NCBI GenBank assembly: GCA_964016885.1
Contig: OZ024746.1
Coordinates: 73,780,001 to 73,844,000 of the forward strand
Length of the DNA: 64,000 nucleotides
Origin: Eledone cirrhosa
Lineage: Eukaryota
Direction of reading: 5' to 3'
Under the pieces are notes generated by a model. The model saw nothing but the letters and a program-made list of their open reading frames with translations, made no database searches and was not told where the DNA came from. Shown in pieces: positions 54,086 to 54,127 of the stretch; the first letter of the stretch is position 1; every line of letters begins with the position of its first letter. Position numbers and translations under genes: made by a program.

Positions 54086-54127
54086 ATAAACGGAAAAAAT
54101 GAAACGAAATTTCGTGTACATACTTAT
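54086..54127. mobile_element. 42-bp minimal relic of the retrozyme-like family (both termini only)
   Basis: ATAAACGGAAAAAATGAAACGAAATTTC (reverse complement of the 22473-22500 end) joined to TACATACTTAT, inside (TA)n. Confidence 0.7.

What the first reader, a model, noticed from the sequence alone, without database searches (positions are those of the whole stretch)
54086..54127. Retrozyme-like insertions reuse the same two termini
Seen: the big insertion ends at ...CATACTTAT|(AT)n on one side (20873) and ...TTCATTTTTTCCGTTTAT|(AT)n on the other (22500). The 42-bp relic here consists of exactly these two ends joined head-to-head, and the 37-kb copy ends at essentially the second position. Neither end coincides with the ribozyme cleavage site. 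Inference: integration uses two defined priming points about 62 nt apart, possibly annealing of UAU motifs to nicked (TA)n next to the GAAAUGAAAUUUCGUUUC hairpin.
Basis: partly seen in the sequence, partly recalled or inferred. Interest (0 to 1): 0.7.

Follow-up and report, generated by a model that had tools for sequence, protein, structure and literature searches.

The report
Penelope-type twin ends of hammerhead repeat
A 42-base scrap of DNA is the two fixed ends of a very common non-coding ribozyme-like repeat joined back to back, likely because a Penelope-type jumping-gene enzyme starts copying the repeat's RNA at two set points, one from each side of a DNA break, a footprint already known from Penelope elements themselves.

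Summary
Confirmed and genome-wide. The relic is 28 nt ending at terminus T2 plus 15 nt ending at terminus T1, head-to-head in (TA)n. The family is a ~420-434-nt non-coding repeat with a type I hammerhead motif (10,046 exact cores). In a sample not chosen by its ends, 100 of 121 outer 3' ends fall at T1 or T2, 61 nt apart; 26 of 27 two-armed copies with both ends at a terminus pair T1 with T2. A stretch with longer TA microhomology is used about 200-fold less, and no end lies at the ribozyme cut. This is the known Penelope 'tail' between two reverse-transcription start sites (PMC11167929); coding Penelope-like elements in this genome show the same pattern, 8 of 8. Retrozymes as Penelope dependants is also in print (10.64898/2026.07.22.740005). 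Added here: strict T1/T2 pairing, non-overlapping arms, and controls favouring priming from both ends of a break. The partner enzyme is unassigned and ribozyme activity untested. The scan found this before on other DNA of this genome (e1-8665316 and others).

The parts
54086..54113 (-). Relic, T2 arm (consensus 246-273; outer end is T2)
   Evidence: exact match to reverse complement of consensus
54113..54127 (+). Relic, T1 arm (consensus 198-212; outer end is T1); 1-nt overlap with the T2 arm; the arms share no template sequence
54041..54085 (.). (TA)n target, left of the relic
54128..54240 (.). (TA)n target, right of the relic
20873..22212 (-). Big insertion, T1 arm: 3.1 tandem units in RNA sense, outer end T1 at 20873
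22217..22500 (+). Big insertion, T2 arm: 284 nt, outer end T2 at 22500; differs from the T1 arm at 5 of 8 diagnostic sites; 4 T at the joint 22213-22216
21080..21122 (-). Type I hammerhead motif (core 21116-21086, predicted cut after 21086); further copies with cores at 21548-21518 and 21982-21952
   Evidence: no Rfam match
22433..22448 (+). Predicted 6-bp hairpin whose loop holds T1 (read through in this arm)
22459..22499 (+). Predicted long hairpin between T1 and T2; T2 lies at its 3' foot
   Evidence: z -3.1 for 22405-22505
37219..37758 (+). Single-armed copy of an older subfamily, ends 4 nt before the main T2 junction into (TA)n; hammerhead core 37468-37498; 5' boundary approximate

Best explanation
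The relic is the smallest form of a two-armed insertion of a non-coding hammerhead repeat whose outer ends fall at two fixed sites 61 nt apart, likely made by a Penelope-like element (PLE) protein that cuts (TA)n and primes reverse transcription from both DNA ends, one at each site. Shown from sequence: fixed ends T1 and T2, one of each per two-armed copy, scattered inner ends, (TA)n targets, read-through of the ribozyme site, and the same anatomy in coding PLEs of this genome. Inferred: the PLE RT/GIY-YIG protein (predicted dimer in PMC11167929) binds the hairpins around T1-T2, each protomer uses one nicked strand as primer, 2-5 nt of pairing only sets the register, both cDNAs stop at random and are joined through 0-5 nt of microhomology or filler. 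The template is likely an uncut multimer or circle and usually the same RNA or source for both arms. The partner is likely one of the Neptune-type families found, which one is not shown.
For: End histogram from the first 100 exact hammerhead cores on contig C1, 81 insertions: 56 T2, 44 T1, 4 internal TA run, 17 other of 121 outer 3' ends; 73 of 81 insertions have at least one end at T1 or T2 (my count from its rows). Of 40 two-armed copies 26 are T1/T2, 1 T2/T2, 0 T1/T1, 13 have one end elsewhere; 26 of 27, p 2e-7. Pooled directly joined arm pairs: 42 T1/T2, 0 like pairs (60 of the 146 loci came from searches biased towards near-identical copies, half towards T2). Genome counts: T1+(TA)n 4,743 against 145 in the reversed control; hairpin+(TA)6 within 30 nt 4,338 on the forward strand against 22 for a window holding longer TA matches. 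Short relics: T2/T1 54, T2/T2 0, T1/T1 10 with 5 in the control. 107 of 130 arms cross the predicted cut, including 17 of 40 arms not selected for the core. Arms of one insertion share haplotype: 14 of 190 diagnostic sites differ against 43% for shuffled pairs; 3 of 22 pairs differ at 2 or more common sites against 2,060 of 2,621 random pairs. Coding PLEs with RT, C-x4-CxxC linker and GIY-YIG sit in (TA)n with their own two termini 64, 38, 36 and 51 nt apart, 8 of 8 two-armed copies pairing unlike ends. A 465-nt sister family, 67% identical over 211 nt, ends at the homologous two places. Papers: two internal RT start sites bound the tail, both strands cut and extended, ribozyme cleavage not needed (PMC11167929); tail at one end, inverted 5' copy, (TA)n bias (PMC8557442); pLTRs suffice for mobilisation in trans (PMC3846280).
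Against: No coding PLE with clear sequence identity to the repeat was found among 50 GIY-YIG loci of 150 listed; only a short pyrimidine motif is shared with family B. The window's own big insertion has arms of different haplotype (5 of 8 sites), and 9 of 85 successive-unit pairs differ at 2 or more common sites, so a single monomeric template does not fit every locus. Shared rare variants between arms are scarce (1 of 22 pairs), so same-subfamily activity at one time is not excluded as the cause of concordance. 21 of 121 outer 3' ends are elsewhere, several on short inverted arms of 24-66 nt. Only 1 of 42 T2 arms stops near T1, so the simple L1-type twin-priming geometry does not hold and strand displacement or two templates must be assumed. 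The hammerhead has U-U at the base of helix II and no Rfam match. The control anchor's own copy number was not counted, and the three relic patterns are not of equal stringency.
Confidence: 0.75

Rival explanations
1. The 42-bp relic itself is not a primary product: it is a longer two-armed insertion whose palindromic middle was later deleted. The two-terminus rule stays, but the relic would then say nothing about priming.
For: Microhomology-mediated deletion of PLE copies is described (PMC3846280 passages); several of the 54 relics share one joint that has a 3-nt overlap; long inverted repeats are unstable (own knowledge).
Against: Joints of long two-armed copies have the same mix of overlap, blunt and filler (12, 12, 18 of 42); arm lengths run continuously from about 10 nt to over 1 kb; some relics carry filler at the joint.
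Confidence: 0.3
2. One priming event, then the cDNA or an antisense RNA folds back and copies itself, making the inverted arm (self-priming model of PMC3846280).
For: Arms usually share haplotype; some joints lie in palindromes of the unit, overlaps up to 28 nt; 27 of 42 length pairs are compatible with it.
Against: 15 of 42 pairs have lengths that neither arm could supply to the other, close to the 18.9 +/- 2.9 of shuffled lengths; the relic's arms share no template sequence; the window's big insertion has arms of different haplotype. Later deletions could rescue the model.
Confidence: 0.1
3. T1 and T2 are RNA 3' ends (termination or processing sites), and reverse transcription starts at the RNA end as for LINEs.
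For: RNA-seq read ends coincide with the start sites in the anole element (PMC11167929); both sites sit by hairpins and U-rich tracts.
Against: Strict pairing of unlike ends is not expected from two independent RNA ends; internal initiation was shown directly for a PLE in vitro; arms run through T1 and T2 of upstream units.
Confidence: 0.1
4. Ends simply follow TAT/ATA microhomology with (TA)n, through priming or later slippage deletion.
For: Both junctions overlap (TA)n by 3-5 nt; 4 ends lie in the internal TA runs and 1 at the GTATATA site.
Against: 21 sites of 3 nt or more of alternating TA exist in the consensus, three longer than or equal to T1's, yet two sites take 100 of 121 ends; 22 against 4,338; T2 also joins (TC)n.
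Confidence: 0.02

Closest known systems
Penelope-like element 'tail' and two-site internal RT initiation (Poseidon of Anolis, PMC11167929, parts 1-2 of 4 read; PMC8557442 and PMC3846280, passages read)
   Same: Two fixed 3' termini with the stretch between them present at one end only, head-to-head inverted arm, AT-rich or (TA)n target, scattered 5' truncation, hammerhead upstream of the termini and not used as an end.
   Different: No ORF; tail 61 nt rather than 30-40 nt (a coding family here has 64 nt); thousands of copies allow the pairing rule to be counted; start sites are U-rich, not AC-rich.
Metazoan non-LTR retrozymes (Cervera and de la Pena 2020, PMC7229834, passages read; Li, Clavereau and Pollet 2026, 10.64898/2026.07.22.740005, parts 1-3 of 5 read)
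   Same: Non-coding tandem units of a few hundred nt, one type I hammerhead with short palindromic helix III per unit, low GC, co-occurring with PLEs, proposed to be PLE-mobilised.
   Different: The text seen of these papers does not map insertion ends or inverted arms; self-cleavage and circular RNA are shown there for other families and untested here; this hammerhead has U-U at the base of helix II.
L1 twin priming (recalled; seen only in the search listing)
   Same: Two DNA ends prime on the template and give an inverted 5' part.
   Different: Here both start sites are fixed and internal, arms overlap widely on the unit, and the downstream arm rarely stops at the upstream site (1 of 42).

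Membership tests
Non-autonomous Penelope-like element | Tail: two alternative 3' termini, extension at one end only | tested here: met
Non-autonomous Penelope-like element | Partial-tandem and head-to-head inverted copies with variable 5' truncation | tested here: met
   40 of 81 insertions two-armed; 5' ends scattered
Non-autonomous Penelope-like element | Insertion into AT-rich or microsatellite targets | tested here: met
   44 of 49 T1 and 51 of 57 T2 ends run into (TA)n or (TC)n
Non-autonomous Penelope-like element | Sequence shared with the pLTR of a coding PLE partner | tested here: inconclusive
   no clear homology in 50 of 150 listed GIY-YIG loci; one short motif shared with family B
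Autonomous Penelope-like element | ORF with RT and GIY-YIG endonuclease | tested here: not met
   no ORF of 150 aa or more over the units; such ORFs exist elsewhere in the genome
Non-LTR retrozyme | Non-coding tandem units of about 150-500 nt | tested here: met
   44 full units, 419-464 nt
Non-LTR retrozyme | Type I hammerhead motif in each unit | tested here: met
   core motif, 6-bp helix I, 4-bp helix II, palindromic helix III; helix II fully covaries in the sister family; no Rfam hit; U-U at the base of helix II is atypical
Non-LTR retrozyme | Self-cleavage of the RNA | not testable with these tools
   needs in vitro transcription of a dimer
Non-LTR retrozyme | Expression as monomeric circular RNA | not testable with these tools

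The most novel reading that the evidence does not exclude
Penelope-type integration is obligatorily two-ended and asymmetric: one RNP places one active site at T1 and the other at T2, extends both ends of a (TA)n break at once and displaces its own first cDNA on an uncut multimer or circle. A ~100-nt hairpin module around T1-T2 would then be the whole cis signal, enough to make the protein paste any RNA into (TA)n, and it would explain the head-to-head inverted arms without an antisense template.
Probability: 0.4. Interest if true: 0.65.

Novelty: new member of a known kind. Interest (0 to 1): 0.4.

Why it matters
How PLEs form their tandem and inverted insertions, and how animal retrozymes spread, are open questions in the papers read. 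This family ties the two together with countable footprints: a protein-free hammerhead repeat carries the PLE two-site signature, unlike ends pair almost without exception, and the shortest relics keep only the two start sites. It names a minimal RNA and intact candidate proteins for an in vitro test. The signature itself and the retrozyme-PLE link are published, so it refines a known mechanism and does not open a new one.

Tried and rejected
Rfam: no family at gathering score in the window and no hammerhead at E up to 10 over one unit; the ribozyme call rests on motif and helices. Low-complexity BLAST of the unit against the window was swamped by (TA)n and replaced by k-mer anchoring; the first end map used one window unit as reference and miscalled T2 as 271, redone with a majority consensus. 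Ends at the ribozyme cut: rejected. Pure microhomology: rejected. T2 arms stopping at the T1 primer: not seen. Search for the partner by homology in 50 GIY-YIG loci: only independent insertions of the repeat and short weak matches; the hairpin match beside a PLE ORF in L227 proved to be a sister non-coding family. RNA evidence: no RNA holder listed; three contig runs laid, uninformative. Look-up of earlier findings by sequence returned nothing. Rows dropped: clusters without an exact core were left out of the histogram; arms under 60 nt or at locus edges out; pairs overlapping under 40 or 60 columns out. Print searches for end mapping of retrozymes; none listed a paper with it, but subscription papers and all supplements were not seen, and the supplements of PMC11167929 and of the 2026 preprint may bear on this.

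Full report
Observation. The 42 bases at 54086-54127 lie between two (TA)n runs. Against a majority consensus built from 44 full units (420 nt), bases 1-28 are the reverse complement of positions 273..246 and bases 28-42 are positions 198..212, with one base of overlap. The big insertion has a minus arm 22212 to 20873 ending at position 212 (T1) and a plus arm 22217 to 22500 ending at 273 (T2); the 37-kb copy ends 4 nt before T2. Positions count from the predicted ribozyme cut, in the sense in which the ribozyme reads.

The element. The window lies in a 3.0-Gb genome. Each unit holds a hammerhead core with a 6-bp helix I, a 4-bp helix II closed by a U-U pair, and a palindromic 2-bp helix III, the dimer-dependent type I form described for animals (PMC4209133 passages). 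Rfam does not call it. A 465-nt sister family keeps the palindrome and replaces helix II with a different, fully paired helix. The exact 31-nt core occurs 10,046 times. No ORF of 150 aa overlaps the units. T1 lies in the loop of a predicted 6-bp hairpin and T2 at the foot of a longer one.

End histogram. I took the first 100 exact cores on contig C1, a sample chosen without regard to ends, giving 81 insertions. Of 121 outer 3' ends, 56 are at T2, 44 at T1, 4 in the internal TA runs and 17 elsewhere; the two windows cover 31 of 420 positions (p 2e-91). 5' ends are spread over the unit, 1 of 130 near the cut, and 0 of 129 3' ends are near it; 107 of 130 arms read through it. Genome-wide there are 4,743 T1-(TA)n junctions against 145 in the control and 4,338 forward-strand T2-type junctions (the reverse count is inflated by repeated matches).

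Microhomology. The consensus has 21 stretches of 3 nt or more of alternating TA. A window with two such sites, one longer than T2's, gives 22 forward-strand junctions under the same pattern design. Its anchor was not counted alone, but the neighbouring core has 5,264 forward copies. Three of 57 T2 ends join (TC)n, and a subfamily with CAT for TAT still ends at T1. Pairing may set the last bases; it does not choose the sites.

Pairing rule. Of 40 two-armed insertions, 26 pair T1 with T2, one short arm gives T2/T2, none T1/T1, and 13 have one end elsewhere. Pooled, 42 of 42 directly joined terminal arms are unlike. Short relics: 54 T2/T1 with many different joints, 0 T2/T2, 10 T1/T1 of which about 5 are expected by chance; the patterns are not of equal stringency.

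Template. Arms of one insertion mostly share haplotype (14 of 190 sites differ, 43% when shuffled; 3 of 22 pairs against 2,060 of 2,621). Against a single monomeric circle as a rule: the window's big insertion differs at 5 of 8 sites between arms, 9 of 85 successive units differ at two or more common sites, and shared rare variants are scarce. Arm lengths are unrelated; 15 of 42 pairs cannot be a fold-back copy of one another, and only 1 of 42 T2 arms stops near T1. The relic's arms share no template sequence, which needs two starts or a later deletion.

Machinery. A GIY-YIG search listed 150 loci; I examined 50. Eleven ORFs carry an RT match, up to 1,096 aa, and nine keep a C-x4-CxxC linker, which PMC8557442 gives for the Neptune and Nematis clades. 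Four such families sit in (TA)n with two termini 64, 38, 36 and 51 nt apart, and 8 of 8 two-armed copies pair unlike ends. None shows clear homology to the repeat. Family B shares a short pyrimidine motif with T2 and family A has the closest spacing; both are leads only.

What is known. PMC11167929 (parts 1-2 of 4) shows in vitro that a PLE cuts and extends both strands of AT-rich DNA, starts at two internal sites that bound the genomic tail, and does not need ribozyme cleavage. PMC8557442 and PMC3846280 (passages) describe the tail at one end, the inverted arm, and mobilisation in trans; the latter proposes self-priming for the inversion. The 2026 preprint (parts 1-3 of 5) argues that animal retrozymes are non-autonomous PLEs and leaves the mechanism open. 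PMC7229834 was seen as passages. No supplements were read. Six searches listed no paper mapping retrozyme ends.

Verdict. Real, general and well controlled, but it is the published PLE tail on a new retrozyme family. It works like a PLE (high confidence) and meets the sequence criteria of a non-LTR retrozyme; cleavage, circles and the partner are untested. Priming from both ends at one site each is the best model (0.75). Earlier notes of this scan reached the same reading on other DNA of this genome; I had formed mine before opening them, and my haplotype test qualifies their single-circle model. Interest 0.4.

Noticed in passing
window 37057-37110, 37168-37218, 37797-37848: A ~50-nt sequence stands inverted around the (TA)n at 37111-37168 and again directly after the 37-kb copy; it may be a long target duplication or a relic of another two-armed family.
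   Followed up: no
L227:5930-6160; L239-L258: Sister non-coding family, 465-nt units, 67% identical over 211 nt, same helix III palindrome and homologous two termini.
   Followed up: partly
L217, L218, L219, L222-L229, L233-L235: Several coding PLE families with long intact ORFs (844-1,096 aa), each with its own tail in (TA)n and hammerhead-like cores with altered conserved bases upstream of T1.
   Followed up: partly
L222:685, L226:7645, L233:6266; L197, L229; L209, L213, L218: Three further recurring hammerhead-like motifs, probably other repeat families.
   Followed up: no
L095, L099, L102, L125, L128, L144, L167: Short inverted 5' arms of 24-66 nt whose outer ends are not at T1 or T2; a second route to 5' joining.
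   Followed up: no
window 5996-9596: 63-bp tandem repeat, 57 copies, 95% matches, with long open frames.
   Followed up: no
window 13290-18460 (-) and 30414-35735 (+): Two related broken LINE-like elements with ORF1, endonuclease and RT pieces (labels recalled, not tested).
   Followed up: no
window 1044-1694 (-) and 28526-28984 (+): Fragments resembling a restriction-like-endonuclease retroelement end and a Helitron protein (labels recalled, not tested).
   Followed up: no
window 46280-46469 and 47068-47244: Mirror-image low-complexity blocks between (TA)n runs, possibly another two-armed insertion.
   Followed up: no
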